A stretch of DNA of 64,000 nucleotides. It comes from a virus. Lineage: Duplodnaviria; Caudoviricetes. A program made the position numbers and the translations under genes. The notes below the pieces were generated by a model, which worked only from the letters and a program-made list of their open reading frames with translations, ran no database searches and was not told the origin of the DNA. Every line of letters starts with the position of its first letter. Within the stretch, counting starts at the first letter, position 1. This document shows positions 28,730 through 57,967 of the stretch, piece by piece. The stretch covers positions 31,390 through 95,389 of the IMG/VR virus record IMGVR_UViG_2930248008_000005; one strand, written 5' to 3'.

Positions 28730-28799
28730 CCTGACCGCTTCCGCCGCGCCTCGAACTGCCGGGGCGCGTGCGGTGGCCGCCAGGGCCAAGATGGAGGAG

Positions 28800-29105
28800 A
28801 TGAACGTGAAGCTGACGTTCGAGTGGGACGTGGCAGAACAGCACAAGCTGGAGATCGAGCTGGACGACCTGTTCGACTGGCTGGTCCGGGAGGGCGTGCT
28901 CGACAAGAACGACCCGCGAACCCTGGAGACGCTCCAGGAGGTCTACAACGACACATGCGAAATCGAGAAGTTGCTGTGGATCTCGCAGGGCAAGGACACC
29001 GTCGTCCGTCGCGGCGTGAGAGGACTGACCTCCCACCCGTTCGAGACGCCGGAGCCCCGGGCGGAGCACCCGCACGACCACGGCGACTACAGCGACGTGC
29101 AGTGA
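28800..29105 (+). CDS. Hypothetical cassette protein
   Basis: Bounded by type B repeats. Confidence 0.7.
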   Translation: MNVKLTFEWDVAEQHKLEIELDDLFDWLVREGVLDKNDPRTLETLQEVYNDTCEIEKLLWISQGKDTVVRRGVRGLTSHPFETPEPRAEHPHDHGDYSDVQ

Positions 29106-29179
29106 TCGCCTGACCGCTTCCGTCCGGCCCGCCTGACGCGGGCCGGGCAGTGGCCGCCAGGCCAGGACGAGGAGGAGAG

Positions 29180-29356
29180 ATGGACGAGCAGCAGCCGGAG
29201 GAGCCCGCCAAGCTGGACCACCAGCAGCTCATGAACATGCTGCGTGACAAGGCCGCAGAGCACGGCTGGTCGGTCGACTGGAGCTTCAAGGGCGACCAGT
29301 ACGGCAACGGCGACCAGGAATACCAGGTCTGGTTCACGCCGACGAGCAGCACCTGA
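29180..29356 (+). CDS. Small hypothetical cassette protein
   Basis: Bounded by type B repeats. Confidence 0.7.
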   Translation: MDEQQPEEPAKLDHQQLMNMLRDKAAEHGWSVDWSFKGDQYGNGDQEYQVWFTPTSST

Positions 29357-29431
29357 CCGCTTCCGCCGCGCCCCGGGAACCGTGCGCCCCGGGGCGTGCG
29401 CGGTGGCCGCCAGGGCCAAGATGGAGGAGAA

Positions 29432-29752
29432 GTGGATCCGAAGACGAACGGCTCGACCGTGCGGCAGTTTCTCGACCTGTCGACGAGCCACCTGCCCGAG
29501 AAGGTCTGCGACGGTCTCGGCGGCTACCCCGGCGTGACGGCGTACGAGCACACGGCGTACGGCTGGTTCGTGTGGGCGCCGAGTGACCCGAACCTCGACA
29601 TCTACGAGAAGGTGCCCGAGGAAATCAAGGCGATCTGGCGGCATGCGCGCAAGCTCGGCTGCGAGTACGTGCTGCTGGAGCGGGACGCTGATGACGACCC
29701 CAACCTGCCGACGTGGAACTGGAGTACGGGCGAGCGCCACGACCCTGCCTGA
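29432..29752 (+). CDS. DUF5983-like protein
   Basis: FLDLSTSHL..YGWFVW..PE.I..I...AR..GCEYVLLERD. Confidence 0.6.
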   Translation: MDPKTNGSTVRQFLDLSTSHLPEKVCDGLGGYPGVTAYEHTAYGWFVWAPSDPNLDIYEKVPEEIKAIWRHARKLGCEYVLLERDADDDPNLPTWNWSTGERHDPA

Positions 29753-29824
29753 CCGCTTCCGTCCGGCCCGCCCTTCGGGGCGGGCCGCGGCGGTGGCCGC
29801 CAGGGCCAGGACGGAGGCAGCGAG

Positions 29825-30151
29825 ATGGAACGCGAGCCGCGACGGTGGCGAATGTACGCGGGAAGACTGAAGAGCCCGGTTGAGGGCCGGGAGTTCATGA
29901 ACTTCGGTGACCCGTGGTACGTGCGGGCGTACGGCCGAGAGCCGGTGCCCGTCGAGCTGACCGAGGACCCCGAGGGCACCTACTGGGGGTGGATCGACGC
30001 ACCGGGTCACCCGCAGGCCGATGGCATGCCGGAGATGGTCCAGCCGCACTACGGCATGTTCACGATGCAGTTCCCCTACGGCCCCGAGGCCGAGCAGGAG
30101 CGAGGGAAGGGCGAGATCGTGCGCATGTCGGTGCGCGAGGTGTCGGAATGA
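29825..30151 (+). CDS. Hypothetical protein
   Basis: Follows a type B repeat. Confidence 0.7.
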   Translation: MEREPRRWRMYAGRLKSPVEGREFMNFGDPWYVRAYGREPVPVELTEDPEGTYWGWIDAPGHPQADGMPEMVQPHYGMFTMQFPYGPEAEQERGKGEIVRMSVREVSE

Positions 30152-30582
30152 CGCGCGAGGCGGTGCGGGAGATGCTACGCAACAACCCGCGCCGCTTCGG
30201 TTACGCACTGCGCAGGGCGCTCTGGACCCACGAGGCGATGGCGTTGCTACCCGGCCCGTACGGCTGGAATGACGGCGGCTGCCTGCTGCTGGCCGAAGGG
30301 CTGGTTGAGCTGCTGGGGCGAGAGGCGCGCGTCAGGGCGGTCGTCCGGGGCGGCACGCTGTACGCCCAGCACTTCGTGGTGCAGGAGGGGCGCTGGCACC
30401 TGGACGCGGACGGGGCATGCCTGGAGGGCACCCTGCTGCGGCGCTGGGAAGAGCAGGAGTTGGTGCCGTCACCTCGGACGGCGCCGTTGCGCGCCGTCGA
30501 CATCAGCGCAGGCACCCCTCGTAGCGCTGAGGTGTCCGCCTCCGTGCGGGACTTCCTCTGTGCGCGCCTGCCTTCGGCCTGA
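30148..30582 (+). CDS. Putative papain/transglutaminase-like Cys-His-Asp protein
   Basis: GGCLLLAEGL ... QHFVV ... LDADG; ATGA overlap. Confidence 0.5.
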   Translation: MTREAVREMLRNNPRRFGYALRRALWTHEAMALLPGPYGWNDGGCLLLAEGLVELLGREARVRAVVRGGTLYAQHFVVQEGRWHLDADGACLEGTLLRRWEEQELVPSPRTAPLRAVDISAGTPRSAEVSASVRDFLCARLPSA

Positions 30583-30653
30583 CCGCTTCGGTCGGACTCG
30601 GGGCGACCCGAGTCCGGCTGTGGCCGCCAGGGCCAGGAAAGTGAGGCGAGGTA

Positions 30654-31117: not shown

Positions 31118-32023
31118 ATGACGGAGGACAAGCGGCCCGTAACTGCCGATAGCACCCCGGCCGAGATTGACCAACGGCTGCTGGGGCTGGCGTGGGACAA
31201 GGCTCACCACCAGGCGATCCTGGGCGGCCGGAACGTCAGCGAGGAGCAGCGGGCAGCTGCGGAAGAGGCGTTGGCGCGGATCGCCGACGAGGAGAATCCG
31301 CTGGAGGCGGCATATGAGCGCCGGCGGTGGACTCGGTGGTGGTGGGTGCCGAACGGGCACCTACACCGGGAGGGTGAGTGCTCGACGCTGTTCGAGAGCA
31401 CCGAGCGGAACCTGACCCCGCGGGCTAGCGGACTGAGCGACGAGGAGTTGGTCGGCAAGTTCGGGTGGCACGTCTGCACCGCCTGCTACCCCGACGCCCC
31501 GAAGGACCCCAACTTCCGCACCCCGGGCACGTACGCGGCCGAGCAGGCAGCCGCCGACGGGTGGTGCCTGAACAAGGTGCCGGCGAGGATGAGCCGCAGA
31601 TGGCACGGCTACGGCAGTTGCGGGGAGTGTGACGCGGGCGGGGTGCCGGTGTCCAGCCGGGGCAACCTGCGCAAGCACAAGCACCAGCGGATGGCCGATG
31701 ACGCCGCCCGCGAGGCGCGGATCAACGACCCGAAGCTGATTGGCGCCGCCACTGGCGAGCCGCTGAAGGTGGACGGCTCGGAGATCAGAACCCGCCGCAC
31801 GGCCGAGATCGAGTGGGTGCGGCACATGGAGAACGGCGATGAGCGCGGTTGGGCCAGTAACCGCGCTTGGCAGGCCGAGCAGCGAGAGTTCGCTCGACAG
31901 ATCGCGGAGGCGCTGGCCGCCAAGGACGGGGTGAGCGTCGAGGAGATCGAGGCTCGACTCCAGCCGAAGCTGGAAGCCAAGATCCGCAAGTTCGAGCGCG
32001 ACCGGGAAACGGCCGGACGCTGA
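31118..32023 (+). CDS. Conserved actinophage hypothetical Zn-binding protein
   Basis: NGHLH...CSTL...LSGL...C..CYPDAP motif. Confidence 0.75.
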   Translation: MTEDKRPVTADSTPAEIDQRLLGLAWDKAHHQAILGGRNVSEEQRAAAEEALARIADEENPLEAAYERRRWTRWWWVPNGHLHREGECSTLFESTERNLTPRASGLSDEELVGKFGWHVCTACYPDAPKDPNFRTPGTYAAEQAAADGWCLNKVPARMSRRWHGYGSCGECDAGGVPVSSRGNLRKHKHQRMADDAAREARINDPKLIGAATGEPLKVDGSEIRTRRTAEIEWVRHMENGDERGWASNRAWQAEQREFARQIAEALAAKDGVSVEEIEARLQPKLEAKIRKFERDRETAGR

Positions 32024-32102
32024 CCGTACGGGTGATGGTGTGGCATCGGGCGCGAGCCCGGTGCCGCGCCACCTCCGTGCGGAGGAGAGAGTGAGGTCAG
32101 GG

Positions 32103-32627
32103 ATGACCTACGCGGTGATTGAGCGACTCCCGGATGGTCGGGAGTGCATCCTGGGCGTCGGCTTCACGGACGCGCCGGGATACCCCGACGACAGTCAGCT
32201 GTGGGCGCCGAAGCGGTGGGCGGTGCTGCTGACGCACGAGGACGTCCTGGTCGACGGGGTCTGGCGGGAGGTGGCACCGGCCGAGCCGACGGACCATGGC
32301 GTGGTGGGCGGCGACGGGCAGCTCAGTACGGCCTGGGGCCGGAGGTTCGCCCGCCGAATGCCCGACGGGTTGTGGGCGGTGATCGACCACTTCTTCTACG
32401 TCGAGACCGACGTGATGCACGAGAGCGGCGAGCGGTGGCTGACCGAGGGGATCTGGCGCACCGCCTGCCGGGACCTGCGCGACGTGGGTGGCACCGAGGA
32501 GTGGGCCGACACCCCCGAGTACAAGGGCCTGGACACGGTCGGCGAGGTCACCGACCGGGACGCCTACGGCCGGTGCGACCTGCTGACCGGCGAGTACGAC
32601 TGGAACGGGGAGAGCCTCGTCCGCTGA
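32103..32627 (+). CDS. Hypothetical cassette protein
   Basis: Bounded by type A repeats. Confidence 0.7.
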   Translation: MTYAVIERLPDGRECILGVGFTDAPGYPDDSQLWAPKRWAVLLTHEDVLVDGVWREVAPAEPTDHGVVGGDGQLSTAWGRRFARRMPDGLWAVIDHFFYVETDVMHESGERWLTEGIWRTACRDLRDVGGTEEWADTPEYKGLDTVGEVTDRDAYGRCDLLTGEYDWNGESLVR

Positions 32628-32700
32628 TGGTGGGGCATCCGTCCGGTGCCGGATGCCCTCGCCACCTCCGGACGGAGGAGAAAGGGCGCAGGTGAGCGCC

Positions 32701-33141
32701 ATGAACCGAGCCGCAATCCTCGAACTGGAAGAACTGGCAGCCCAGCCGCCGCGCCTGCCGAGCCGGTACGACGCGACGGACCACTGCCGAGAGTGCCGGT
32801 CGCTGGTCGGGACGCCGGACATGGCCAGGTGCGCGCTGGCGGTCTTGGCGGACCGGCAGGAGGCGGGCCGGCTCGTGCTGGCCGCCGAGACCATCGCGCA
32901 GTTGGCGGAGGTGCCCCGCTCGCCGTGGCGGGTAGTCGCGGCCATGCTGCGGCCGTGGAAGTCGTCGCGCCTGTTCTACCCGATGGTCCTCACCGGCAAG
33001 CCGGGGGTCTACGCGCTGAGCGGCGGCGGGGCGCGGAACTCGGCAGAGCAGGCCGAGGAGCACCTCGGCTCGATCCTCGGCGGCTACCGGGAGGGTTGGG
33101 TGGCGACGTACGCCGGGGCGTACCAGGTGTTCAGCCGCTGA
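32701..33141 (+). CDS. Hypothetical cassette protein
   Basis: Bounded by type A repeats. Confidence 0.7.
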   Translation: MNRAAILELEELAAQPPRLPSRYDATDHCRECRSLVGTPDMARCALAVLADRQEAGRLVLAAETIAQLAEVPRSPWRVVAAMLRPWKSSRLFYPMVLTGKPGVYALSGGGARNSAEQAEEHLGSILGGYREGWVATYAGAYQVFSR

Positions 33142-33206
33142 CCGCGAGGGATGACGGTGCGGGCCGGGCGCATGTCCGGCCGGCGCCGCCGGCCGCGGGG
33201 TCGGAG

Positions 33207-33527
33207 ATGGGTGGTCGAGAGGTGGACTTGGTGGGGGTTCGGCCGGACACGTTGGCCGAGATGACGGAGATGATGCGGGACCTGGACGCGGCACTTTCGT
33301 TCGGGACGTCGTGGATGGCAGGAGGCAAGCTGACGGTCCGGGCGATCAAGGGCACCTGCTACATGGTGCGGGTGCTCGGGCCGGAGCGCGCCGAGCTGGA
33401 CTGCATCGAGACGAGCCGCGGCCTGGTGCAGATGGCCGGCTGGCACGACCCGGCCGCCGGACTGTCGCTGCCGCCGAACATCGCACGCAAGGCGTGGGAG
33501 ATGTCGCAGGTCAAGCGAGCGGCGTGA
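33207..33527 (+). CDS. Hypothetical protein
   Basis: Follows the last type A repeat. Confidence 0.6.
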   Translation: MGGREVDLVGVRPDTLAEMTEMMRDLDAALSFGTSWMAGGKLTVRAIKGTCYMVRVLGPERAELDCIETSRGLVQMAGWHDPAAGLSLPPNIARKAWEMSQVKRAA

Positions 33528-33624: not shown

Positions 33625-34080
33625 ATGATCAGAAACGAAGCCGAGCGACTCCAGCGTGCGCTGGACGAGCTGGTCGGCGCGACCGGCGTCGAGGGTATCC
33701 GGGCTGCCACCCGCCTGCGCGACGACATGCAGAAGTCGATTCAGCGGTCACGGGCGCTCATGGCGGCGGACCTGTACTACCTGAAGGGCATGTCGTCGCG
33801 GGAGATCGCGTCGGCCGTCAGCGAAGGCGGCACCCCCTACACGCAGGCCGGGGTGTTCAAGTGGCTCAAGGCGCAGATCGGCCAGGACCCGCTGGTGTAC
33901 GTGGGCGTCTGGCGGGACGGCGACGACTTCCACATGGACACCTTCCCCGCCGAGAGTCCGGACCAGATCCGCAAGGTGGTCGACGGCGGCGTGCGCCTCG
34001 CGCCCGCGACGTGGGAGCTGGATCCGAGCACGGCCGACGCTAAGGACGTGTGGCGCCGGCTGACCCGACTGGAGAGCTAA
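33625..34080 (+). CDS. Putative HTH DNA-binding protein
   Basis: GMSSREIASAV...YTQAGVFKWL; GAGGAG RBS. Confidence 0.55.
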   Translation: MIRNEAERLQRALDELVGATGVEGIRAATRLRDDMQKSIQRSRALMAADLYYLKGMSSREIASAVSEGGTPYTQAGVFKWLKAQIGQDPLVYVGVWRDGDDFHMDTFPAESPDQIRKVVDGGVRLAPATWELDPSTADAKDVWRRLTRLES

Positions 34081-34095
34081 GGAAGCGAGGAAGTC

Positions 34096-34392
34096 ATGGA
34101 CGGGCACGAGCGACAGGGGCAGGCACTGCTCGGCGACGAGCGCGTGTGGCTGATGGATGCCCTCGGGGTGTCGAACGAGCAGGCGCGGCTGGCGGTGCAG
34201 GAGGTCGGCCTGTACGTCCTCGGGGTGTCGGAGGGTGGGTTGGCGGTGCTGAGGGTCGGCCGGCACGTCCTCATGGGAACCAACGAGGCTGGCGCCCACT
34301 TTCAGGCGGTGGGCGACGCCGGCCGGGAGGCGCTGGAAGCGATCCGGGCTCGCCTGATCGAGCAGGGCTATAGCCCCAGTGACGTCCGGTGA
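34096..34392 (+). CDS. Hypothetical protein
   Basis: RBS; operonic position. Confidence 0.65.
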   Translation: MDGHERQGQALLGDERVWLMDALGVSNEQARLAVQEVGLYVLGVSEGGLAVLRVGRHVLMGTNEAGAHFQAVGDAGREALEAIRARLIEQGYSPSDVR

Positions 34393-34634
34393 GCGAGGAG
34401 GAGCGCGCCCGGCTGCTCCGGCTGATTGGCGAGGAGTACGCGGAGACGCTGGATCGGGTCGACCACTGGATCGAGCGGGAGGTGCGCCACCTCGGCCAGG
34501 TCGACGAGGTGGAGCGGTTCGCCTACCTGTGCGAGCAGTTGAGGAGGTTGCCCCCAGAGACGGTGGGTGCGGCCCCTGGGATGGCGGCGGTGCTCATCCT
34601 GCGGGAGGCGAAGGCCAAGCGGCACGAGCTGTGA
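34389..34634 (+). CDS. Hypothetical protein
   Basis: GTGA overlap. Confidence 0.6.
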   Translation: MSEEERARLLRLIGEEYAETLDRVDHWIEREVRHLGQVDEVERFAYLCEQLRRLPPETVGAAPGMAAVLILREAKAKRHEL

Positions 34635-34640
34635 CTGGGC

Positions 34641-34700
34641 GAGAACGGGGCCACGGATTGACGTGGCCCCGTTCTTTGCTCTACCTTGGATGTATTAAAT
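34641..34700 (+). promoter_or_regulatory. Terminator-like hairpin overlapping a promoter, with TTGGATGTATTAAAT motif
   Basis: GAGAACGGGGCCACG/CGTGGCCCCGTTCTT inverted repeat; TTGACG-N18-TACCTT. Confidence 0.7.
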
Positions 34701-34808
34701 ACACCTAAGCACGACGGAGCTGGCCGCTTCCGTGCTCGCCGGGAGACCGGCGGGACGCGGTGGCCGCCAGGCCAGAGCCACAACCGAACAGGAAAGGACC
34801 ACCTCAGG

Positions 34809-36026: not shown

Positions 36027-36106
36027 CCCTGACCGCTTCGGTCCGGCTCGCCCCACCCGGGGCGAGCCGGGCAGTGGCCGCCAGGGCCAAGACGGAGGAA
36101 ACCAAC

Positions 36107-36631
36107 ATGCCCGATGCACCCGCCGTGCCACTGAGCCTGAACCACCTGCCCACCGTGGCCGGGCTCGCCGTCCCGTGGATCACGCCCACACTGCCCGACG
36201 GCCGCCACCTCTTCGGGAAGGTGGACGCCTCGCGCCTGCGCGCCGCCCTCGACAAGTACCTCTGCTCGATCTGCGGCAAGCCGCTCGACGAGCGGATCGT
36301 GTTCGCCATGCGCGACGTCGACCTGCGGAGGCTTCTGTCGCCAGAGCCCGGCATGCACCCCGCGTGCGCGCACTACAGCGCGCTCGCCTGCCCCATGCTC
36401 GGCGGACGCATGGCCCGCTACGGCAGGGCTGTCGGGGTGGCCGCGGAGGTTGGGATCCCGCTGGGCGACCCCGGTAACGCGCGGGCCGGCCACGCGGCCG
36501 ATCGGTATCACCTCGTGTGGGTGAACAGCTACCGGGTCGTGACGGACCCCGCCACTGACCTTCCATCGGCGCAGGTGATGCCCTGGCAGATCCTGCGCAG
36601 CCGGCCAATCGTCCGGCAGGAGGGCGCCTGA
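36107..36631 (+). CDS. Conserved actinobacterial mobile-element protein (Cys/His motifs)
   Basis: GLAVPW...LCSICG...EPGMHPACAHYSALACPML. Confidence 0.7.
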   Translation: MPDAPAVPLSLNHLPTVAGLAVPWITPTLPDGRHLFGKVDASRLRAALDKYLCSICGKPLDERIVFAMRDVDLRRLLSPEPGMHPACAHYSALACPMLGGRMARYGRAVGVAAEVGIPLGDPGNARAGHAADRYHLVWVNSYRVVTDPATDLPSAQVMPWQILRSRPIVRQEGA

Positions 36632-36705
36632 CCGCTTCGGTCGGGCTCAGGGCGACCTGAGCCCGGCTGTGGCCGCCAGGGCCAAGACGAGGAGATTCGA
36701 GGATC

Positions 36706-37035
36706 ATGAGCGACCAGGACGAGAACGAGCAGATCGTCAGGAACTTCCTGATGGGCGCAGCGCACACCCAGGCGGCCCTCCGCAGGCGGCGGGTCATCCT
36801 GTTCGTCGACGAGTCGATGCTCACCGAGCACGGCTACGAGCCGGTGTTCGTCGCCGAAGGCGAGACCGGCTGCTACCGCCAGGGCCGCGAGAACCACCAG
36901 CAGCCCTGGTACTTCGGGCACGACTTCAAGGTGGCCAAGCGGCTCGTCGACGAGGCAAACGAGCGCCTCGGTGTGTCACCCGAGGAGGCGCACCACATCG
37001 TGATGGCGTCGATGTTCCCCGGCTACCGGCCCTGA
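36706..37035 (+). CDS. Hypothetical cassette protein
   Basis: Bounded by type B repeats. Confidence 0.7.
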   Translation: MSDQDENEQIVRNFLMGAAHTQAALRRRRVILFVDESMLTEHGYEPVFVAEGETGCYRQGRENHQQPWYFGHDFKVAKRLVDEANERLGVSPEEAHHIVMASMFPGYRP

Positions 37036-37107
37036 CCGCCTCCGTCCGGACCGCGCCCGTCGCGCGGTCCGGCGCGGTGGCCGCCAAGGCCAAGAAGGGA
37101 GGGCACC

Positions 37108-37485
37108 ATGCCCACGACACAGGACCTGATGGAGGCAGCCTTCAAGCGGCTGCGAGACAAGGGCATCACGCCGACGCTGGTGTTCGACCAGCGCGCCATG
37201 GTGCGCAGCGACTGTCTGGAGGCGTACGAGCGCGCCGCCCAGGTGGAGGGCAACCCCGGCAGGTGGGTGGGCGCATCCTTCACGGACGCCCAGTGGCGCA
37301 GCGGCATGCTGCACTACCGGGGCTCCCTGGACAGGGAGTGGCACCTGGTCCACAAGCTGCTCTTCAGCTTCCCCCGCAACGACCTCACGGTCCCGCGCGA
37401 GCTGCTGAACGCCCTCGCGGCCGAGAGGCTCCACGCGGAGTGGCAGTGCGAGGCGGCGTCAGCCGTCGAGGTGTGGCTGACCTGA
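37108..37485 (+). CDS. Hypothetical cassette protein
   Basis: Bounded by type B repeats. Confidence 0.7.
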   Translation: MPTTQDLMEAAFKRLRDKGITPTLVFDQRAMVRSDCLEAYERAAQVEGNPGRWVGASFTDAQWRSGMLHYRGSLDREWHLVHKLLFSFPRNDLTVPRELLNALAAERLHAEWQCEAASAVEVWLT

Positions 37486-37559
37486 CGGGTTCCGTGGCCC
37501 ACCCGGGGTGCGACCGGGTGGGCCGCGGTGGCCGCCAAGGGCCTGAGCGAGGAGGAGAC

Positions 37560-37802: not shown

Positions 37803-37892
37803 CCGATCGGGCCGCTTCGGTGGCGCCTGGGGCAACCCAGGCGCCGCAGTGGCCGCCCGGCCAACGAGGAACCGCATGAAGGAGCAAGACAC

Positions 37893-48323: not shown

Positions 48324-48324
48324 G

Positions 48325-48814: not shown

Positions 48815-49228
48815 ATGGTCATCACGAGCGGCTTCCTCGTCTGGCTGACGCTGGCCGCCGTCGGCCAGCACTATGGACCGAAGATCAACCGCGGCCGGGA
48901 GAAGTGGCAGAAGGCGTACCTCTGGGCGTCGTACTTCGGGGCGCTCATGGCCGGGGCGGCGATGGTCGACACGACCCTCGGCGACTGGGCCGCGGCCATC
49001 TCCGGCTCGTTCCCGCTTCTCGGCTGGCCGCCGGTCATCATCATGATCGCCGTCATCGCCAAGGACGTCGGCGCCGACCGGACCCCGAACATCCCGGCGT
49101 GCGTCTGCACCGTGCTGCTGTGGTCGTGGACCGTCGGCCTCGGCGGCGCACTCGGCAACGGCCTGCAGAACATCGCCACGTTCCTGAACAACCTCAGCGG
49201 CAGCCTCAACGCCAACCTGTTCGGCTGA
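48815..49228 (+). CDS. Multi-TM membrane protein (Spd-like)
   Basis: About four TM segments; upstream of traB. Confidence 0.6.
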   Translation: MVITSGFLVWLTLAAVGQHYGPKINRGREKWQKAYLWASYFGALMAGAAMVDTTLGDWAAAISGSFPLLGWPPVIIMIAVIAKDVGADRTPNIPACVCTVLLWSWTVGLGGALGNGLQNIATFLNNLSGSLNANLFG

Positions 49229-49233
49229 CCGAG

Positions 49234-50304: not shown

Positions 50305-50389
50305 CCGCTTCCGTGGCCGCCCGGGTGACCGGGCGGTGCGCGGTGGCCGCCAGGGCCAAGAGAACCCCCGAGTAGCACGGAGAGGAACC

Positions 50390-52642
50390 ATGGCATCCAC
50401 CAGCACCCGCGCCCGCCGGCAGCCCGGCGAGGCCGCCGACAAGCGCGAGGCGCCGGCCGACCGGAAGCCGGACTCCGAGGAGGAGGCGACGCCCACCGCC
50501 CCGCTGCTGCCGTACGCCGAGATGGGCCAGCGCCTTCGCGGCGGGGTCGAGGTCCTGTCCGCCGCCGCGGTGACCGCCGCGGCCGGCCAGGTCGTCTACC
50601 AGAACCACGCCGCGATGTACGCGGCGATGGCCGTGCCGGTGTTCGGCGTGGCCGCGTGGAAGCTGTCGCCGAAGCTGATCGACAAGACCCTGGCCCGAGT
50701 GGAGGGGAAGCAGACCGCCGAGGCGATCGAGGCCGGCGAGCCGGAGGCCCTCACCCGCCGGGAGCGCATCCGCCGCGCGGTCGCTGCGGCCACCGCAGCG
50801 GCGACCGGCTGGGTGGCTGCCGCCGGCACGGTGGGACTTGAGCCCCATACCCTCGGCGGCAAGGTCACCATCACCGCCGGTGCGCTGCTGACGATGCTGG
50901 CCGGGGTGCCATACCTGCGTTTCCACCGCTTCGAGGCGATCCCGCCAGCGAAGCCGAAGCCCGACCCCCGGCCTGAGCCCGAGCCCGAACCGGAGCCCGA
51001 ACCGGAGCCCGAGCCGGCCCCGTTCGGCTGGGCCGTCGAGGTCGCGAAGAAGGTCGCCATCTGGACCACCGCGGTCGCGCTGACCGCTGGCGCGCTACCT
51101 GGCACCCACCTGGTCGAGCACACCGTCGAGGAGATCAAGGGCGGCTGGCGCGCCACGATCGCCTCCGACCTGCCGGGCACGGTCAAGCCGAGCAAGTTCG
51201 TGCAGGCCGCTGAGCAGGTCGCTGGCGCCTACGAGGTCGACATCCCCGACGTGTCGATCGAGCTGATGCCTGGCAACGCCAGCCAGGCGATCCTGACCGT
51301 ACAGAAGGAGAACCCGCTCGCGGCGATCCAGCACTGGCAGGGACCGGAGGCCACTTTCGACGTCGAGACTGGCGTGGCCCACATCGGCCTGCACGCCGAC
51401 GGGGAGCTGGTGCGCTACCGCTTCTGGTCCACTGGCGGCGCCTGGCACGACCTGATCTCCGGAGCGACGGGCTCTGGCAAGTCGGAGCTGGTCAACCTCC
51501 TGCTGGCCCTGGAGCGCCACGCCACGGTGCTGGTGCCCGAGGAAGTCGACGGCGAGACGAAGATGGTCAAGAAGGGCCTGATCGTCTCCCGGGTCATCGA
51601 CCCGCAGTTCGGCCAGAGCTTTGGCGACTGGCAGGACTACGTCGACTGGTTCGCCCACCACCTCGACGAGGCGCGGATCCTGCTGCAGAAGACCGAGCGG
51701 GAGATGTTCGCCCGCAACCGGGCCTTCGGCCGGCAGAAGTGGTACGACGAGGAGCGCAAGGTCTGGCGGCGGGGCCAGAAGAACTGGAAGCCCACGCCCG
51801 AGCTGCCGATGATCGTGATCACGATCGACGAGGCGCACATGATCCTCAAGGATCCTGAGTGCAAGCGGATCGTGGCAATGCTCGGCAAAATGGGCCGCAA
51901 GGTCGGCATCAAGCTGCGCCTGATCACGCAGGTTCCGCTGCTGACCGAGCTGGGCGGCGACATGGCCATCCGCGACGCGGTCGCCGGCGGCAACGTGATC
52001 GTCTTCCGCACCGCCAACGCCCTGTCCGGCCAGGTGGCGTTCAACGGCACCCTGCCGGCCGCCCCGCACCAGCTGCCGCGCGAGTGGCCGAAGGGCAAGT
52101 GCCGGCCGGGCGAGGAGACCACCGCAGGCATCGGCTACGTGCTGGGCGCGGCGTCCCGGTCGTCGATCATGCGCGCGTTCTACCCGGGCGAGGCGATCGA
52201 CTGGATCTACCGCGACGGCAAGCTCTACGGCACGCCGGGCGTGCTCGACGCGCTGACCCGCCGCTCCGGCACCGGCTACGAGGACCGCCTGGAGCGACTG
52301 GAGGCCATGGACAACGGCGACCTCGACAGCATCCCGCTGCCGCAAATGGGCGAGCAGGACGGCCGGCCGTGCCGCCTGATCGTGCTGGAGCGCCTCCTGG
52401 AGGCCGATAACCACACCCTGCCCCGGCAGAAGCTGCTGGACCTGGTGAAGAGCCACAGCAGCCGCATGGTCGGCAAGGTCCTCACCGACCTACGGAGGGC
52501 CAAGTGGACCGAGCCCGGCGAGGAGTCTGGCTCCCACAAGCTCACCGAGGCGGGCATCGCGGGCGCCATGGATGAGCTGGCCCAGGCCGCCGAGCAGGAG
52601 GCGGCGGCACAGGCCGAGACCGAGGAGCTTGTCGACGCGTAG
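50390..52642 (+). CDS. traB: FtsK/SpoIIIE-family conjugative DNA translocase (TraB-like)
   Basis: N-terminal TMs, GATGSGKS Walker A, ITIDEAH Walker B, GRKVGI, C-terminal wHTH. Confidence 0.85.
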   Translation: MASTSTRARRQPGEAADKREAPADRKPDSEEEATPTAPLLPYAEMGQRLRGGVEVLSAAAVTAAAGQVVYQNHAAMYAAMAVPVFGVAAWKLSPKLIDKTLARVEGKQTAEAIEAGEPEALTRRERIRRAVAAATAAATGWVAAAGTVGLEPHTLGGKVTITAGALLTMLAGVPYLRFHRFEAIPPAKPKPDPRPEPEPEPEPEPEPEPAPFGWAVEVAKKVAIWTTAVALTAGALPGTHLVEHTVEEIKGGWRATIASDLPGTVKPSKFVQAAEQVAGAYEVDIPDVSIELMPGNASQAILTVQKENPLAAIQHWQGPEATFDVETGVAHIGLHADGELVRYRFWSTGGAWHDLISGATGSGKSELVNLLLALERHATVLVPEEVDGETKMVKKGLIVSRVIDPQFGQSFGDWQDYVDWFAHHLDEARILLQKTEREMFARNRAFGRQKWYDEERKVWRRGQKNWKPTPELPMIVITIDEAHMILKDPECKRIVAMLGKMGRKVGIKLRLITQVPLLTELGGDMAIRDAVAGGNVIVFRTANALSGQVAFNGTLPAAPHQLPREWPKGKCRPGEETTAGIGYVLGAASRSSIMRAFYPGEAIDWIYRDGKLYGTPGVLDALTRRSGTGYEDRLERLEAMDNGDLDSIPLPQMGEQDGRPCRLIVLERLLEADNHTLPRQKLLDLVKSHSSRMVGKVLTDLRRAKWTEPGEESGSHKLTEAGIAGAMDELAQAAEQEAAAQAETEELVDA

Positions 52643-52733
52643 CTGGCCGCCTCCGTCGCCGCCGGGCCCCACGTCCGGCGGCGGCGGTGACCGCCAGGTC
52701 ACCGAACCCCAAAACAATGGGAGCGAGAGAAAC

Positions 52734-53312: not shown

Positions 53313-53639
53313 GTGGGACAGGAGAAGGGCGAAACAACCTACGTCATGCTTGCAGGCGACTGCGGGCCAATGACTCGCACGAGCTACATCCCGACGGAGG
53401 ATGAGCGGAACGACTTCCAGGCGTGCGCCTGGCGCTACCGGATTCACTATCGGTACCGCACGACGACCAGCAAGGCTGACGGCTGGAGCGAAATGGGGTA
53501 CCCCACCCAGATGAAGGACGAGTACCTGGCGAGCTTCGTCGAGATTCACGAGCAGTGGCTGTCGGAGACGCCTTCGGCCGGCGGGGAGCGGCTGATTGCG
53601 GGTTCGGTGGAGGTCGTGAGGTACGAAGCCATCGCCTGA
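53313..53639 (+). CDS. Hypothetical cassette protein
   Basis: Bounded by type B repeats. Confidence 0.6.
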   Translation: MGQEKGETTYVMLAGDCGPMTRTSYIPTEDERNDFQACAWRYRIHYRYRTTTSKADGWSEMGYPTQMKDEYLASFVEIHEQWLSETPSAGGERLIAGSVEVVRYEAIA

Positions 53640-53740
53640 CCGCTTCTGCGGCCGTCCGGGCGACCGGGCGGACCGTGGTGGCCACAACAAATCGGGCCCG
53701 GATCCACGGTGGATCCGGGCCCGCTTGGCCGACGGCGCAG

Positions 53741-54001
53741 CTATGCCATCGACGGTTCTCGGCGCTTGCGCGGCTGCTTCGGGCGCCACTCGAAGCCGGA
53801 CTTGCGCCGCAGCTCTCCGAGGGCGTTGGCCCAGCCTCGCCAGTCGGAGCCGTTGGTGTCGCCCGGCAGGTTGCACAGCACTTCGTCTCCGCGCAGTACC
53901 TGCAGATGGTTGCCCCGGCTCCGCCGGAGTCTCAGACCGTAGTCCTTCATCGCGTCGAACAGCCGACTCTTCTCGCTGGGCCCCATGTTCACGTTGCTCA
54001 T
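53741..54001 (-). CDS. HicA-like protein
   Basis: GLRLRRSRGNHLQV...T.GSDWR...N....LRRKSG; GGGGAG RBS. Confidence 0.55.
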   Translation of the reverse strand: MSNVNMGPSEKSRLFDAMKDYGLRLRRSRGNHLQVLRGDEVLCNLPGDTNGSDWRGWANALGELRRKSGFEWRPKQPRKRREPSMA

Positions 54002-55340: not shown

Positions 55341-55422
55341 CCGGCCCGCTTCCGTCCAGCCCGCACCTCGCGGGCCGGCGCGGTGGCCGTCCGGCCAGAG
55401 CCACCGACGAGAGGTCACCACC

Positions 55423-55941: not shown

Positions 55942-55942
55942 G

Positions 55943-56179
55943 ATGGGCTCGTACTGCAGGTTCTGCGATCGGCGGTGCTTCGTCCTGCGCGTCCTCCGCG
56001 ACGGCCGGTCGATGGCGCTCGCCACCTGCGCGCGAGGAATGGCGCACGACCGCCAGAAGTGCGGGCAGGACCACACCACAGCGCTCAATCCGGCCACCGA
56101 CCAGGCCGCAATCCAGCGGCTCCTCGCGGAGATCGCCGAGCTGAAGGAACTCGCCCGCTCGGCAACCAACCCCACCTGA
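55943..56179 (+). CDS. Small Cys-containing hypothetical protein
   Basis: MGSYCRFCDRRCFV.R...ATC..G..HD. Confidence 0.7.
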   Translation: MGSYCRFCDRRCFVLRVLRDGRSMALATCARGMAHDRQKCGQDHTTALNPATDQAAIQRLLAEIAELKELARSATNPT

Positions 56180-56287
56180 CCGCCGCGCTTCCGGCCGGCC
56201 CGTCTCGCACGGGCCGGCACGGTGGCCGCCCGGCCAGCCCGGACCACCGCCGGGGCAACAGCCCGCCAGACACCGGAGGCACCACGC

Positions 56288-56545
56288 ATGTACGGCACCG
56301 CCACGACGACCCGCGTTCCTGACGGGGAGATGGACTACCTCGCGAAGGCCGGCGAGCAGCTCGACAAGGCCGCGCAGGCGATCGACAGCCGCGCCACCGA
56401 CAGGTACGTAACCAAGGAGGAGATCAGCACCGCCCGGCAGGCGATCGCAAACGGGTACGCGCTGCTTGGCGCGATCCAGCGCGGACAGCTCCCGGCCGCG
56501 CTCGCCCGGGACCTGCTCGACCGGCTCGCCACCGACAACCGCTGA
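56288..56545 (+). CDS. Hypothetical cassette protein
   Basis: Flanked by near-identical type B repeats. Confidence 0.7.
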   Translation: MYGTATTTRVPDGEMDYLAKAGEQLDKAAQAIDSRATDRYVTKEEISTARQAIANGYALLGAIQRGQLPAALARDLLDRLATDNR

Positions 56546-56628
56546 CCGCCGACGCTTCCGGCCGGCCCGTCTCGCACGGGCCGGCACGGTGGCCGACCGG
56601 CCAGCCCCCACAAAGACCAAGGAGAGTT

Positions 56629-57372
56629 ATGACCAGCCGCACCATCGAGGCCCGACAGGCGGGACCGGTCGTCGCCGACCTGAGCCTGCAGTACGGGCGC
56701 ATCGAGGTGATCGTCGAGCGCCGCGACCGCGCCGAGGTCACCCTGACCACCCCCGCCAGCCGCGGCCCCGCCGTCGACGCCGTCAAGGGCTTCGCGCTGC
56801 GCGACACCCGCGACGGCTTCCGCGCCCACCTGGAGATCCCCCCGACCGTGGTCTCCGGGGGCGGCACCACGGTCATCCAGGGCGGCGGCAGCGTCGTCGT
56901 CCTCGGCGACAACATGCACCAGGTCAACCACTTCTCTGGTAGCGGCTCGGTGGTCCAGATCGGCGGCAGCCACGGCAGCGTGGTGGTTGGCGGCGGGAAC
57001 GTCTCCATCGGCGGCGGGAGCACCGTTGAGATGCAGGTTCGCCTGCCCGAGCGGTCCGCGATCGTCGTCGACGCCGCCCACTGCCCGGTTCTCACCCAGG
57101 GCCGCCTGGGCGCCGCCTCGATCAATTTTCGGCACGGCAACGTCCAGATCGACGAGGTTGGCGCCCTGAACGTCCAAGGCGCGCACGGCAGCGTCACCGT
57201 CAATGCCCTCGACGGTGACGCGAACCTCCACGTCACCCACGGCAACATCGACATCCACGCGCTGCGCCCCTGCCGGGTGCGGGCGCGCACCCGACACGGC
57301 AACATCACCGTGAGCGGCGCCCGCGTCGACCTGGACGCCTCCGCTCAGCACGGCTCGGTGCGCAACCGGTGA
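56629..57372 (+). CDS. DUF4097/adhesin-like beta-repeat protein
   Basis: Repeated ..HG(N/S)(V/I) beta units. Confidence 0.7.
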   Translation: MTSRTIEARQAGPVVADLSLQYGRIEVIVERRDRAEVTLTTPASRGPAVDAVKGFALRDTRDGFRAHLEIPPTVVSGGGTTVIQGGGSVVVLGDNMHQVNHFSGSGSVVQIGGSHGSVVVGGGNVSIGGGSTVEMQVRLPERSAIVVDAAHCPVLTQGRLGAASINFRHGNVQIDEVGALNVQGAHGSVTVNALDGDANLHVTHGNIDIHALRPCRVRARTRHGNITVSGARVDLDASAQHGSVRNR

Positions 57373-57545
57373 GGGAGTTCTGGGCGAAGATCCTCGCCTC
57401 CGCGCTGCTGACCCTGCTCATCAAGGGCGGGGTCGCCCTGGCCGGCCACTGGATCGCCTGGTGGTTCGCCGCCCTCATCTCGCTGGTCGTCGTCTTCGGC
57501 GGCTGGTTCATCATCACCGGCGACTGGGACGAGGTGTTCCGCTGA
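57369..57545 (+). CDS. Small membrane protein
   Basis: GTGA and TGATG overlaps; two TMs. Confidence 0.6.
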   Translation: MREFWAKILASALLTLLIKGGVALAGHWIAWWFAALISLVVVFGGWFIITGDWDEVFR

Positions 57546-57886
57546 TGACCACCACTACGGTCTTTCGCGCCGACCCCGTCCAGTCTCACGATGCGTGCGG
57601 TGGCGGCGACCCGTGCGCGCACTGCAAGGCCGGACGCCCGGGGGTACCACGCTGGATCATGGGGGTGAGTAGCCCTACGCAGTCCGTCTGGGAGCTGGAC
57701 GAGGAGGTGCGCCTGGCCCTGCCGCCGCGCTTCCACGTGCCGCACTACATCGACACCTGCACGCCCGCCGGCTGGTTCTGCGCCAGCTGCTGGGGCGACG
57801 GCTGGATGTCGAGCTGGCCCTGCGACGTCGCCCTGCGGCACCCCAGGCACATCGGCCCGCTCGCACCCACGCGCACCTCGAACTGA
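57545..57886 (+). CDS. Hypothetical Cys-containing protein
   Basis: H.P....W.C..C......WPC motif. Confidence 0.65.
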   Translation: MTTTTVFRADPVQSHDACGGGDPCAHCKAGRPGVPRWIMGVSSPTQSVWELDEEVRLALPPRFHVPHYIDTCTPAGWFCASCWGDGWMSSWPCDVALRHPRHIGPLAPTRTSN

Positions 57887-57967
57887 CCGCTTCCGTCCCG
57901 CCTGGCCAAAAGCCGGGCGGGCGCGGTGGCAGCCAGGCCAAAGCAACCGATCGAGCAAGGAGAGAGC

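What the first reader, a model, noticed from the sequence alone, without database searches (positions are those of the whole stretch)
28731..57945. Type B repeat: different sequence, same architecture, with attC-like ends
Seen: CTGRC-CGCTTC-[hairpin]-GTGGCC-GYCAG-GGCCA. The 5' pentamer can pair with the loop of the 3' TGGCC/GGCCA hairpin: CTGAC/GTCAG at 38733 and 42243; CTGGC/GCCAG at 34720, 40798 and 44707; CGGGC/GCCCG at ~37808. The commonest pair, CTGAC/GCCAG, has one mismatch. Hairpin loops include UUCG (~29774), GCAA (~37832) and GCGA (~30603, ~36652). The ends RYCTGAC...GYCAGGGC loosely echo attC RYYYAAC...GTTRRRY, where the stop codon also often lies in the inverse core. Two unrelated sequences sharing one topology suggests one function carried by two lineages of element.
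Basis: partly seen in the sequence, partly recalled or inferred. Interest (0 to 1): 0.75.

Follow-up and report, generated by a model that had tools for sequence, protein, structure and literature searches.

The report
Folded repeat between mobile-element genes
About thirty copies of a 55-66-base folded repeat fill the gaps between neighbouring genes of a prophage fused to a plasmid-like transfer module; it most likely acts on the messenger RNA as a gene-boundary signal and does not look like an integron recombination site.

Summary
A covariance model finds 28 strong and 3 weak type B copies, all on the + strand, from 28731 to 57941. Each starts at or just after the upstream stop codon and ends 13-38 nt before the next start codon.

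Each copy folds into a long imperfect rod. The 5' CTGRC pairs with the 3' GYCAG, and the apical hairpin varies and covaries. The 3' strand of the rod can instead form a small hairpin.

Both helices are kept in other genomes. The small hairpin is kept there with different sequences, so the two-state layout is under selection.

Type A (39 copies) has the same topology and no meaningful model cross-hit.

Conserved U-G pairs, a more stable sense strand, excess GNRA/UUCG loops and strict co-orientation with genes point to RNA, not folded DNA.

The attC reading fails. There is no integron integrase, no attC core motifs, and the strand logic is wrong. No copy has a U-tract, so these are not canonical terminators.

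Type B also occurs at 1-4 copies in 27 of 151 Micromonosporaceae genomes and in 34 metagenome contigs, often bracketing FtsK-like transfer genes.

Function is untested. Earlier notes of this scan report analogous intercistronic elements in other phages.

The parts
28731..28788 (+). type B copy, CTGAC/GCCAG
   Evidence: R1 61.7 bits; upstream stop TGA 4 nt before the element
29110..29164 (+). type B copy, CTGAC/GCCAG, 4-nt loop in the 3' hairpin
   Evidence: R1 64.8 bits; stop 7 nt upstream
29353..29418 (+). type B copy; the element's own TGA is the in-frame stop
   Evidence: R1 54.3 bits
29749..29808 (+). type B copy, UUCG apical loop; own TGA is the stop
   Evidence: R1 61.4 bits
30579..30635 (+). 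type B copy, GCGA loop; own TGA is the stop
   Evidence: R1 76.1 bits
31040..31099 (+). type B copy, last of the first B block
   Evidence: R1 64.0 bits
34720..34774 (+). type B copy, CTGGC/GCCAG perfect base, upstream of the DUF932 gene
   Evidence: R1 59.6 bits; rod is the minimum-energy fold; DUF932
36029..36089 (+). type B copy after the DUF932 gene
   Evidence: R1 70.3 bits; stop 5 nt upstream
36628..36684 (+). type B copy, GCGA loop; apical stem differs from the 30579 copy by compensated changes
   Evidence: R1 75.4 bits; sequences
37032..37092 (+). type B copy, CCTCC variant of the 5' strand, GCCAA loop
   Evidence: R1 52.8 bits
37482..37544 (+). type B copy found only by the model
   Evidence: R1 45.0 bits; sequence
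37808..37863 (+). type B copy, CGGGC/GCCCG (compensated base), GCAA loop
   Evidence: R1 64.4 bits
38279..38338 (+). type B copy; 3' hairpin broken (GAGCGA tail)
   Evidence: R1 59.9 bits
38733..38790 (+). type B copy, CTGAC/GTCAG (compensated)
   Evidence: R1 64.3 bits
39665..39723 (+). divergent type B copy (CCGGC.../GCCTG)
   Evidence: R1 38.7 bits
40168..40228 (+). type B copy with a shifted small 3' hairpin (GCGC/GCGC)
   Evidence: R1 51.2 bits
40798..40856 (+). type B copy, CTGGC/GCCAG, stop TAG directly before it
   Evidence: R1 57.4 bits
41157..41212 (+). type B copy; own TGA is the stop
   Evidence: R1 67.6 bits
42243..42301 (+). type B copy, CTGAC/GTCAG (compensated)
   Evidence: R1 62.8 bits
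43376..43431 (+). type B sub-family copy (CGGCC ... GACCG-GCCAG)
   Evidence: R1 39.9 bits
44060..44116 (+). type B sub-family copy (CGACC ... GACCG)
   Evidence: R1 34.1 bits
44707..44762 (+). type B copy, CTGGC/GCCAG
   Evidence: R1 62.4 bits
48703..48763 (+). type B copy, CTGGC/GCCAG, inside the transfer module
   Evidence: R1 62.8 bits
50301..50358 (+). type B copy directly upstream of the TraB/FtsK-like gene
   Evidence: R1 64.9 bits; TraB-like and FtsK hits
52643..52701 (+). type B copy directly after the TraB-like gene; 3' hairpin changed on both arms (TGACC/GGTCA)
   Evidence: R1 55.5 bits
53234..53291 (+). type B copy, CTGAC/GCCGG
   Evidence: R1 52.7 bits
53636..53685 (+). truncated type B copy: the 3' strand is cut short after GTGGCC and a different perfect hairpin follows
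   Evidence: R1 21.4 bits at 53641-53683; sequence
55342..55398 (+). type B sub-family copy (CGGCC ... GTCCG)
   Evidence: R1 37.9 bits
56186..56235 (+). weak type B sub-family copy; apical hairpin identical to the 56549 copy
   Evidence: R1 24.3 bits at 56186-56227
56549..56603 (+). weak type B sub-family copy
   Evidence: R1 26.9 bits
57883..57941 (+). last type B copy; own TGA is the stop
   Evidence: R1 58.4 bits
11754..28319 (+). first block of type A copies (same topology, different sequence)
   Evidence: 36 of the 39 R2 matches at 42 bits or more lie here
32019..33217 (+). second, short block of 3 type A copies between the two B blocks
   Evidence: R2 67.9, 53.8 and 47.4 bits
45116..52642 (.). 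plasmid/AICE-type transfer module inside the B block: GntR regulator (- strand, 45116-45871), DUF2637 protein (45943-47739), TraB/FtsK-like protein (50390-52642)
   Evidence: Pfam and NCBIfam hits

Best explanation
Type B is a strand-specific cis-acting RNA element of about 55-66 nt that marks the boundary between two cistrons of a long polycistronic message.

Shown:
- It begins at the upstream stop codon.
- It folds into a long imperfect rod. The parts are a basal helix (CUGRC:GYCAG), a C-C mismatch, a second short helix with a conserved U-G pair, and a freely covarying apical hairpin.
- It ends 13-38 nt before the next start codon, so there is no room for a promoter. Every downstream gene must therefore be transcribed through the element.
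- The 3' strand of the rod can instead pair with the nucleotides that follow it and form a small hairpin. In most window copies the two folds differ by about 0.5 kcal/mol.
- Both folds are conserved across genomes.

Inferred:
- The rod protects the 3' end of the upstream cistron, or is cut by a host double-strand RNase such as RNase III.
- After such a cut, or while a terminating ribosome holds the 5' strand, the 3' strand snaps into the small hairpin. That hairpin would sit at the 5' edge of the next cistron just before its ribosome-binding site.
- Each small gene thereby becomes an independently stable and independently translated unit.

The repeated element probably also serves as a joint for homologous exchange of genes between mobile elements.
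For: Copy number and strand:
- 31 of 31 copies are on the + strand, which is the strand of the genes.

Link to the stop codon:
- 12 of 17 CTGAC copies use the element's own TGA as the in-frame stop. The binomial P against a 1/3 chance is 0.002.
- Of the other five CTGAC copies, four have a stop 4-7 nt upstream; for 31040 my ORF caller found no upstream ORF.
- In other genomes 13 of 31 copies use their own TGA, and 6 more have a stop 4-16 nt upstream.

Covariation of the rod:
- Window copies: 83.5% of cells paired against 72.7% in shuffles, and 14 of 21 pairs carry double changes. 0 of 500 shuffles reach these values, and slid controls pair 34-54%.
- 59 copies from the window and other genomes: 87.3% against 72.4%, and 17 of 21 pairs carry double changes.
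- In that set basal pair 2 reads UA 48, GC 6, CG 1. Pair 4 reads GC 10, AU 3, unpaired (mostly A-C) 46.

Signs that the fold is RNA on the sense strand:
- Conserved U-G pairs at two positions, in 47 and 48 of 59 copies.
- The sense strand folds better than the antisense strand in 21 of 30 B copies and 24 of 35 A copies.
- GNRA or UNCG loops in 6 of 31 B copies and 9 of 39 A copies.

The alternative 3' hairpin:
- Present in 26 of 28 window copies.
- Present in 28 of 31 copies from other genomes at -5 kcal/mol or better, there with different sequences. The control gives 16.0 +/- 2.5, with a maximum of 22 in 200 resamplings.
- The same holds in type A: 36 of 38 against 25.2 +/- 2.9.
- Rod and alternative fold differ by about 0.5 kcal/mol in the CTGAC/GCCAG copies.

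Against termination and promoters:
- No T run in 30 of 30 copies.
- No sigma-70-like promoter between 28 and 47.9 kb.
- Four tandem TTGACA promoter-like units lie at the head of the array.

Precedent: clustered hammerhead ribozymes flank single genes in prophages and are thought to cut long phage transcripts into gene-length mRNAs (PMC3088659, passages read).
Against: - There are no RNA data. No RNA run holds this DNA, so no cleavage, 3' end or transcript has been seen.
- All genes here are on one strand, so orientation alone cannot separate RNA from DNA function within the window.
- The flanks are conserved in sequence far beyond what pairing needs. The TraB-like protein next to a copy is only 26% identical to its counterpart next to a copy in another genome. 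This suggests recognition by a protein, which could just as well bind DNA.
- Masking the 5' strand does not consistently open the ribosome-binding site. Mean unpaired probability is 0.61 unmasked against 0.70 masked, with changes in both directions.
- No RNase gene was found among the 76 array proteins scanned.
- The copies are paralogues, so the shuffle controls overstate significance.
- The A-C mismatch in the basal helix is the majority state.
Confidence: 0.5

Rival explanations
1. Recombination joints for gene shuffling, like the PeSL motifs of T4-type phages. The repeated element provides short homology at which genes are swapped between phages, plasmids and integrative conjugative elements. 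This may hold in addition to an RNA role.
For: - The same element lies next to mostly unrelated genes in other genomes. All-against-all BLASTP of 40 flanking products gives only small clusters.
- Of the 83 window array proteins compared, only the TraB-like one has a homologue beside a copy elsewhere.
- Families A and B occur in blocks in the order A-B-A-B.
- The 56186 and 56549 copies have identical apical hairpins and flank one small gene.
- PeSLs are described as composite motifs that mediate modular shuffling (PMC4122927, abstract read).
Against: No closely related genome was available, so no exchange junction has been mapped. Homology-driven exchange does not explain the covarying hairpin, the U-G pairs or the conserved alternative 3' hairpin.
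Confidence: 0.25
2. Hairpin terminators or attenuators without a U-tract. They would insulate neighbouring genes, for instance the potentially lethal transfer gene, from read-through. In the phage array the antitermination leader would override them.
For: - Each copy is a strong GC-rich hairpin placed directly after a stop codon.
- Copies bracket segments encoding FtsK-like transfer proteins in 4 of 4 tested metagenome contigs.
- Relatives of the DUF932 gene are also followed by strong hairpins in 10 of 14 loci, judged by eye.
- A promoter cluster with an rrn-leader-like sequence heads the array. The resemblance to an rrn leader is recalled and not tested.
Against: - 30 of 30 copies have no T run, and none coincides with a terminator-like site in the scan.
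- The gap to the next start codon is too short for a promoter. Efficient termination would therefore silence about 30 consecutive genes.
- Termination does not explain the conserved flank sequence or the alternative 3' hairpin.
Confidence: 0.15
3. Selfish palindromic repeat, like REP or MITE elements, that spreads into intergenic gaps and is merely tolerated.
For: High copy number in one element and 1-4 copies in many genomes. Neighbouring copies are very similar to each other.
Against: - No Y1/RAYT transposase in the record.
- No terminal inverted repeats or target duplications were seen.
- The register with stop codons is precise.
- Two helices are conserved across genomes by compensatory change.
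Confidence: 0.08
4. Double-stranded DNA site for the TraB/FtsK-like translocase or the GntR regulator. It would be a transfer locus (clt) or a polar guide sequence, with co-oriented copies directing DNA pumping.
For: - Copies are associated with FtsK/SpoIIIE genes in genomes and metagenomes.
- Copies lie directly before and after the window's TraB-like gene.
- The flanks are conserved in sequence.
- All copies are co-oriented.
Against: - A DNA-binding site needs neither a covarying hairpin, U-G pairs, stable RNA tetraloops nor register with stop codons.
- As I recall them, known TraB sites are tandem 8-bp repeats. No such repeats are present here.
Confidence: 0.07
5. attC-like site of an integron-like cassette system. 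Folded single-stranded DNA would be recombined by a tyrosine recombinase.
For: The shape is an imperfect palindrome with conserved ends, a variable centre and conserved mismatches. The array looks cassette-like, with small promoterless genes.
Against: - There is one tyrosine recombinase in 95 kb, at the far end of the record. It scores 51 bits on the integron-integrase model against a cut-off of 265.
- There is no serine recombinase.
- There are no AAC/GTT cores.
- The wobble pairs favour the top (sense) strand.
- The element begins at stop codons and abuts ribosome-binding sites inside an operon.
Confidence: 0.03
6. A new class of self-cleaving ribozyme, playing the part that hammerhead arrays play in other prophages.
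For: The position is the same as that of clustered hammerheads between prophage genes (PMC3088659, passages read). Two competing helices are conserved.
Against: Nearly all conserved nucleotides are base-paired in the rod, so there is no conserved unpaired core. No ribozyme family matches at Rfam thresholds, nor at E up to 1.
Confidence: 0.03

Closest known systems
Clustered hammerhead ribozymes flanking single genes in prophages (Perreault et al. 2011, PMC3088659)
   Same: Repeated structured RNA elements sit at nearly every gene junction of prophage accessory operons. They are thought to cut long transcripts into gene-length mRNAs.
   Different: There is no hammerhead or other ribozyme match and no conserved unpaired catalytic core. 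Any cleavage would need a host enzyme.
RNase III processing sites between early genes of phage T7
   Same: Intercistronic irregular double-stranded rods of more than two helical turns in one long early transcript. After cutting, hairpins remain at the new RNA ends.
   Different: About 30 copies of one sequence family with conserved flanks. The stop codon lies inside the basal helix. An alternative 3' hairpin is conserved. Cleavage has not been shown.
Start-associated sequences and extended SAS of Cluster K mycobacteriophages (PMC3203893)
   Same: Actinophage repeats restricted to the non-structural half of the genome, in one orientation, tied to translation start sites. The extended form is an imperfect inverted repeat with a variable spacer. 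Function is unknown.
   Different: SAS is a 13-bp motif at the ribosome-binding site, and its spacer is 4-13 bp. Here the conserved arms enclose a 25-40-nt covarying hairpin and are anchored to the upstream stop codon, not to the start.
PeSL promoter/stem-loop motifs of T4-type phages (PMC4122927, PMC2839356)
   Same: Repeated intergenic stem-loop motifs flank small variable genes and appear to act as points of genetic exchange.
   Different: PeSLs contain an early promoter. Type B has no promoter-like sequence and no room for one.
Integron attC sites
   Same: Imperfect palindromes with conserved ends, a variable centre and unpaired bases, lying between promoterless genes.
   Different: No integron integrase, no R/L core sequences, sense-strand rather than bottom-strand folding, and placement inside a phage operon.
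REP/BIME elements and mycobacterial MIRUs
   Same: Short repeats in intercistronic gaps of operons, co-oriented with the genes. REPs can stabilise upstream mRNA (recalled). MIRUs overlap stop and start codons (PMC12548453, passage read).
   Different: These are chromosomal and genome-wide. MIRUs carry small ORFs. No RAYT was found here. Type B is confined to mobile elements.

Membership tests
Integron attC site / integron | An adjacent integron integrase (IntI-type tyrosine recombinase) | tested here: not met
   There is one PF00589 protein in the 95-kb record, at G000:611-1777, about 58 kb from the first copy. TIGR02249 scores 51.2 bits against a cut-off of 265, and NF011946 scores 28 bits against 435.
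Integron attC site / integron | R''/R' cores RYYYAAC ...
   The ends are CTGRC ... GYCAG. No AAC/GTT is present in any of the 22 aligned copies.
Integron attC site / integron | The functional fold is on the bottom strand as single-stranded DNA | tested here: not met
   Conserved U-G (G-T) pairs lie on the coding-sense strand. The sense strand is the more stable in 21 of 30 copies.
Integron attC site / integron | Cassette junctions at one fixed nucleotide in relatives | not testable with these tools
   No close relative of the record was found. IntegronFinder is not available.
Canonical intrinsic terminator | GC-rich hairpin followed by a U-tract | tested here: not met
   At most 2 T in the 15 nt after the rod, and no T run longer than 2, in 30 of 30 copies. 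None of the 9 terminator-like sites at 28-47.9 kb is a type B copy.
Self-cleaving ribozymes catalogued in Rfam (hammerhead, twister, pistol, hatchet, HDV-like) | Match to a family covariance model | tested here: not met
   No match at gathering thresholds over the whole window. At E up to 1 over 36000-38900 there is only a chance-level miRNA hit.
REP element with RAYT | An associated Y1 (HUH) transposase | tested here: inconclusive
   No PF01797 match in the provirus record. The host chromosome was not available.
PeSL | An early promoter joined to the stem-loop | tested here: not met
   No sigma-70-like site at 28-47.9 kb. This scan covers only that promoter type.
RNase III processing site | Irregular double-stranded RNA of about 20 bp or more that is cleaved by RNase III | tested here: inconclusive
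   The rod has about 21 modelled pairs with conserved mismatches. Cleavage cannot be tested, and no RNA run is listed.
Same family as type A | Cross-recognition by covariance models | tested here: not met
   R1 scores on A copies are at most 16.7 bits. R2 scores on B copies are at most 21.6 bits, against at least 42 bits on A copies. The topology is equivalent.

The most novel reading that the evidence does not exclude
Types A and B are two independently evolved versions of a bistable intercistronic RNA switch gated by the stop codon. A ribosome terminating on the 5' strand of the rod releases the 3' strand, which refolds into a small hairpin next to the following ribosome-binding site. Each boundary would thus report whether the upstream gene is being translated, and would set processing, stability or re-initiation for the next gene. 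Type B would be native to the transfer modules of actinomycete integrative conjugative elements. In this phage-plasmid hybrid it has been amplified about ten-fold, so that a roughly 46-kb early transcript becomes a string of about 70 self-contained, exchangeable gene units.
Probability: 0.3. Interest if true: 0.8.

Novelty: new variant of a known kind. Interest (0 to 1): 0.6.

Why it matters
If the RNA reading holds, this is a compact and portable module that lets a mobile element string dozens of unrelated small genes into one transcript while keeping each stable and translatable.

Two unrelated sequences have converged on the same two-state fold. The fold is also conserved by compensatory change across a bacterial family. 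Together these argue for a defined mechanism that is not yet described and is absent from Rfam 15.

The finding also links phage accessory-gene arrays to the transfer modules of actinomycete conjugative elements. It offers a marker (model R1) for finding such modules.

In practice the element could serve as an intercistronic insulator for operon design in high-GC actinomycetes.

Tried and rejected
Relatives by DNA:
- Megablast of 34000-42000 against phages found nothing.
- A gapped pattern scan of viral contigs gave 56 single matches, which look like chance.
- The same pattern in 401 Micromonosporaceae genomes matched 18. The reversed control pattern also gave scattered single matches, so I moved to the covariance model.

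Relatives by protein:
- The DUF932 protein alone found no viral-contig relative.
- An alignment of homologues gave 30 genome loci at 48-64% identity.
- Those loci do not carry type B. The top repeat in two Streptomyces loci was a CRISPR array.
- In the annotated phage and plasmid collections all matches are below 60% identity.

Expression: no RNA holder is listed for this DNA.

Ribosome-binding-site gating in type B: masking the 5' 14 nt changes the mean unpaired probability only from 0.61 to 0.70, with changes in both directions. This is inconclusive.

Small 3' hairpin in the window alignment A2: the tool shows no covariation, because the one compensated copy (52643) is shifted by a gap. The support comes from other genomes.

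Literature: seven searches gave no paper describing this element. One search (five terms) returned nothing. These searches are too narrow to show that the element is not in print. The phiC31 early-terminator papers and the T7 RNase III sites are recalled only.

Gene calls are from my own crude GC3-based ORF caller. Counts that rest on it are approximate. Of 74 called junctions, 32 carry A, 26 carry B and 16 carry none, and several of the 'none' are overlapping miscalls.

Supplementary files of papers were not requested.

Full report
CONTEXT

The window is bases 31390-95389 of a 95,389-bp record that IMG/VR classes as a provirus. It has about 70% G+C.

My GC3-based ORF caller puts large genes on the minus strand up to about window 9.4 kb. 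From about 11.8 kb to the end, nearly all genes are small and on the plus strand.

Homologues of one array protein (DUF932, 34809-36026) are best in Micromonospora, Dactylosporangium, Actinoplanes and relatives, at 56-64% identity. The host is therefore probably a member of the Micromonosporaceae.

Inside the plus-strand array lies a plasmid/AICE-type transfer module:
- a GntR regulator on the minus strand (45116-45871);
- a DUF2637 protein (45943-47739);
- a TraB/FtsK-like protein (50390-52642).

Four TTGACA units spaced 91-92 bp apart lie at 10042-10316, upstream of the array. I saw the sequence but did not test that reading.

The 5' motif has 23 matches against 4.4 expected. The 3' motif has 17 against 0.44.

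A covariance model built from 22 copies finds 28 plus-strand matches at 34-76 bits and three weaker or truncated ones. No independent minus-strand match appears.

ANATOMY

The element starts at the stop codon of the upstream gene:
- In 12 of the 17 CTGAC copies the TGA inside CTGAC is the in-frame stop.
- In four of the other five CTGAC copies the stop lies 4-7 nt upstream. For the fifth (31040) my caller found no upstream ORF.
- The six CTGGC/CGGGC copies have a stop 3-13 nt upstream. For 34720 the TAA was seen by eye.
- Against a 1/3 chance of being in frame, 12 of 17 has P = 0.002.

The element ends 13-38 nt before the next start codon in most copies, and a purine-rich ribosome-binding site lies in between. 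That gap has no room for a promoter, so the downstream gene must be transcribed through the element.

RNAalifold and single-sequence folds give a long imperfect rod. From base to tip it consists of:
- CUGRC paired with GYCAG;
- a C-C mismatch;
- G-C, C-G and U-G pairs;
- a U-U mismatch;
- an apical hairpin of 11-16 pairs that differs from copy to copy.

COVARIATION

On the 22 window copies:
- 83.5% of cells pair, against 72.7% in shuffles and 34-54% when the partner is slid.
- 14 of 21 pairs show changes on both sides.

On 59 copies from the window and other genomes:
- 87.3% of cells pair, against 72.4% in shuffles.
- 17 of 21 pairs show changes on both sides.
- This alignment was fitted to the model, which favours the structure.

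The basal helix is mostly invariant but shows real compensation:
- Pair 2 reads U-A 48, G-C 6, C-G 1.
- Pair 1 has one U-A.
- Pair 4 reads G-C 10, A-U 3, unpaired (mostly A-C) 46.

The A of the mismatch is the A of the TGA stop codon. That explains why the mismatch is tolerated. Where the stop lies elsewhere, the position is often G and the helix is perfect.

The copies are paralogues, so the shuffle controls overstate significance. The slid controls and the compensations seen in other genomes are the stronger evidence.

THE SECOND FOLD

- It forms in 24 of 28 window copies.
- At 52643 both arms have changed together (TGACC/GGTCA).
- The hairpin uses the same bases as the basal helix, and its five-base loop would have to pair completely with the 5' pentamer. 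The two folds are therefore most likely alternatives and not a pseudoknot. This is inference from helix geometry.
- In the CTGAC/GCCAG copies the two states differ by about 0.5 kcal/mol. In copies with a perfect base the rod wins by several kcal/mol.

The strongest evidence comes from other genomes:
- There the GGCCA tail is not conserved.
- Yet 28 of 31 copies can still fold their 3' strand into a small hairpin of -5 kcal/mol or better. They use different partner sequences such as CGCCA/TGGCG, CCGCC/GGCGG and GCCGCCA/TGGCGGC.
- When the tail is replaced by random local sequence, the count is 16.0 +/- 2.5, with a maximum of 22 in 200 resamplings.

TYPE A IS EQUIVALENT IN TOPOLOGY BUT NOT IN SEQUENCE

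- Model R2 finds 39 plus-strand type A copies of at least 42 bits, at 11754-28319 and 32019-33217.
- The best B copy scores 21.6 bits with R2, and the best A copy scores 16.7 bits with R1.
- In type A the 5' strand (CCGUGCG, just after the TGA) pairs with the loop and adjoining bases of a 3' hairpin. That helix is 91.7% paired, and 6 of its 7 pairs have changes on both sides.
- The 3' hairpin stem itself takes many complementary forms. It forms in 36 of 38 copies, against 25.2 +/- 2.9 in the control.
- The order along the array is A, B (28.7-31.1 kb), A (32.0-33.2 kb), B (34.7-57.9 kb).

RNA OR DNA?

Four observations favour a fold on the sense-strand RNA:
1. Two U-G pairs are conserved in 47 and 48 of 59 copies, with C-G as the usual alternative. 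On the other strand these would be A-C mismatches.
2. The sense strand is the more stable in 21 of 30 B copies and 24 of 35 A copies, by a mean of 2.5 and 5.6 kcal/mol.
3. GNRA or UNCG tetraloops cap 6 of 31 B copies and 9 of 39 A copies. That is 15 of the 33 four-base loops, where about 5% would be expected at even base composition. The folding program gives these loops a bonus, which may inflate the count a little.
4. The element is in register with stop codons and co-oriented with the upstream gene in other genomes too. There 13 of 31 copies use their own TGA as the stop, 6 more have a stop 4-16 nt upstream, and 12 were unresolved by my caller.

WHAT IT IS NOT

Not an attC site:
- The record holds one tyrosine recombinase, at its far left end. 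It scores far below the integron-integrase cut-offs.
- There is no serine recombinase.
- The core motifs are absent, and the strand preference is the opposite of that of attC sites.

Not a canonical terminator:
- No T run follows any of the 30 copies examined.
- None of the scan's terminator-like sites is a copy.

Not a catalogued RNA family.

No Y1 transposase is present in the record.

DISTRIBUTION

- R1 matches 27 of 151 sampled Micromonosporaceae genomes at E of 0.001 or less, with 1-4 copies each and scores up to 60 bits.
- It matches 4 of 151 genomes sampled across the class.
- Type A matches only 7 of 151 family genomes, and weakly, with a best score of 38 bits.
- An exact-pattern scan of metagenome contigs gave 34 contigs, carrying 52 model matches at 1-3 per locus.
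- Flanking genes in other genomes are mostly unrelated to each other. Those with Pfam hits are typical of conjugative elements: SSB 4, FtsK/SpoIIIE 3, DUF2637 3, DUF6197 2 and NUDIX 1, out of 39 scanned.
- Pairs of copies about 1.7 kb apart bracket segments encoding FtsK/SpoIIIE proteins in 4 of 4 tested contigs.
- In the window, copies sit directly before and after the TraB-like gene.
- Of the 83 window array proteins compared, only that TraB-like one has a homologue beside a copy elsewhere, at 26% identity.

The element's flanks are therefore far better conserved than its neighbouring genes. Type B looks native to transfer modules and is amplified about ten-fold in this record.

MECHANISM

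Shown: a sense-strand, two-state structured element that fills the gap between stop codon and ribosome-binding site, and that transcription must read through.

Inferred: it works as a cistron-boundary module.
- The rod (about 21 modelled pairs) could block 3' exonucleases or be cut by RNase III.
- The small hairpin would then cap the 5' end of the next cistron.
- A terminating ribosome covers the 5' strand and would favour the same refolding.

Two published observations bear on this:
- Structure just after a stop codon lowers translational coupling (PMC12548453, passage read). This fits an insulating role.
- Hammerhead arrays occupy the same position in other prophages (PMC3088659, passages read).

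I could not show that the ribosome-binding site is gated. I found no RNase among the 76 array proteins scanned. No RNA data exist for this DNA. The confidence of 0.5 applies to 'RNA-level boundary element'. The specific steps are less certain.

NOVELTY

The kind is known: repeated structured elements between genes of phage or mobile-element operons. Examples are hammerhead arrays, T7 RNase III sites, SAS/ESAS and PeSLs.

This family, its stop-codon anchoring, its conserved pair of competing helices, its twin type A and its link to transfer modules were not found in the papers I searched or in Rfam 15.

Earlier unchecked notes of this scan report analogous intercistronic hairpin or pseudoknot families in other phages. 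The phenomenon is therefore recurrent, and this is a large and unusually informative example.

Noticed in passing
window 10031-10440: Four TTGACA units at 10042, 10134, 10225 and 10316, three of them near-identical 91-92-bp repeats. A GTTGTTTGTTGAGAACTCAAGAGC stretch follows. It could be a tandem promoter cluster with a leader at the head of the plus-strand array.
   Followed up: partly
window 45116-52642: A plasmid/AICE-type transfer module (GntR regulator, DUF2637 protein, TraB/FtsK-like protein) sits inside a record that also carries phage-like structural genes on the minus strand. This suggests a phage-plasmid hybrid or two adjacent elements that share one repeat family.
   Followed up: partly
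window 53636-53730: One type B copy is cut short after GTGGCC and is followed by a perfect hairpin (GGGCCCGGATCCACGGTGGATCCGGGCCC). A minus-strand ORF at 53741-54001 comes next. This may be the end of a transcription unit.
   Followed up: no
window 45872-45942: An AT-richer gap with palindromic TAGTCAGATCTGACTA lies between the divergent GntR and DUF2637 genes. It looks like an operator.
   Followed up: no
window 56186-56603: Two weak type B copies with identical apical hairpins flank one 107-codon ORF (56222-56545). This suggests a recent local duplication or gene conversion.
   Followed up: no
L089:12964-13818 and L090:14208-15074: CRISPR arrays (29-nt repeat, 61-nt period, about 15 units each in the arrays proper) lie a few kb from DUF932 homologues in two Streptomyces genomes. 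They are unrelated to the finding.
   Followed up: partly
L066, L067, L068, L072, L073 and other DUF932 loci, first 110 nt after the stop codon: In about 10 of 14 relatives the DUF932 gene is followed directly by a strong GC-rich hairpin, without type B flanks. In several of these a second conserved hairpin containing GCGCATCGAGCACGCC follows.
   Followed up: partly
window 11842-63997 (plus-strand array): Of 76 array proteins scanned, only a few have Pfam matches: ThyX, dCTP deaminase, GNAT, the GmrSD N-terminal domain, DUF5983, DUF7715 and DUF6891. The rest are orphans, as is typical of phage accessory or anti-defence arrays.
   Followed up: partly
window 34389, 39154, 43744: Some neighbouring array genes overlap by ATGA and have no element between them. 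So not every junction carries a repeat.
   Followed up: no
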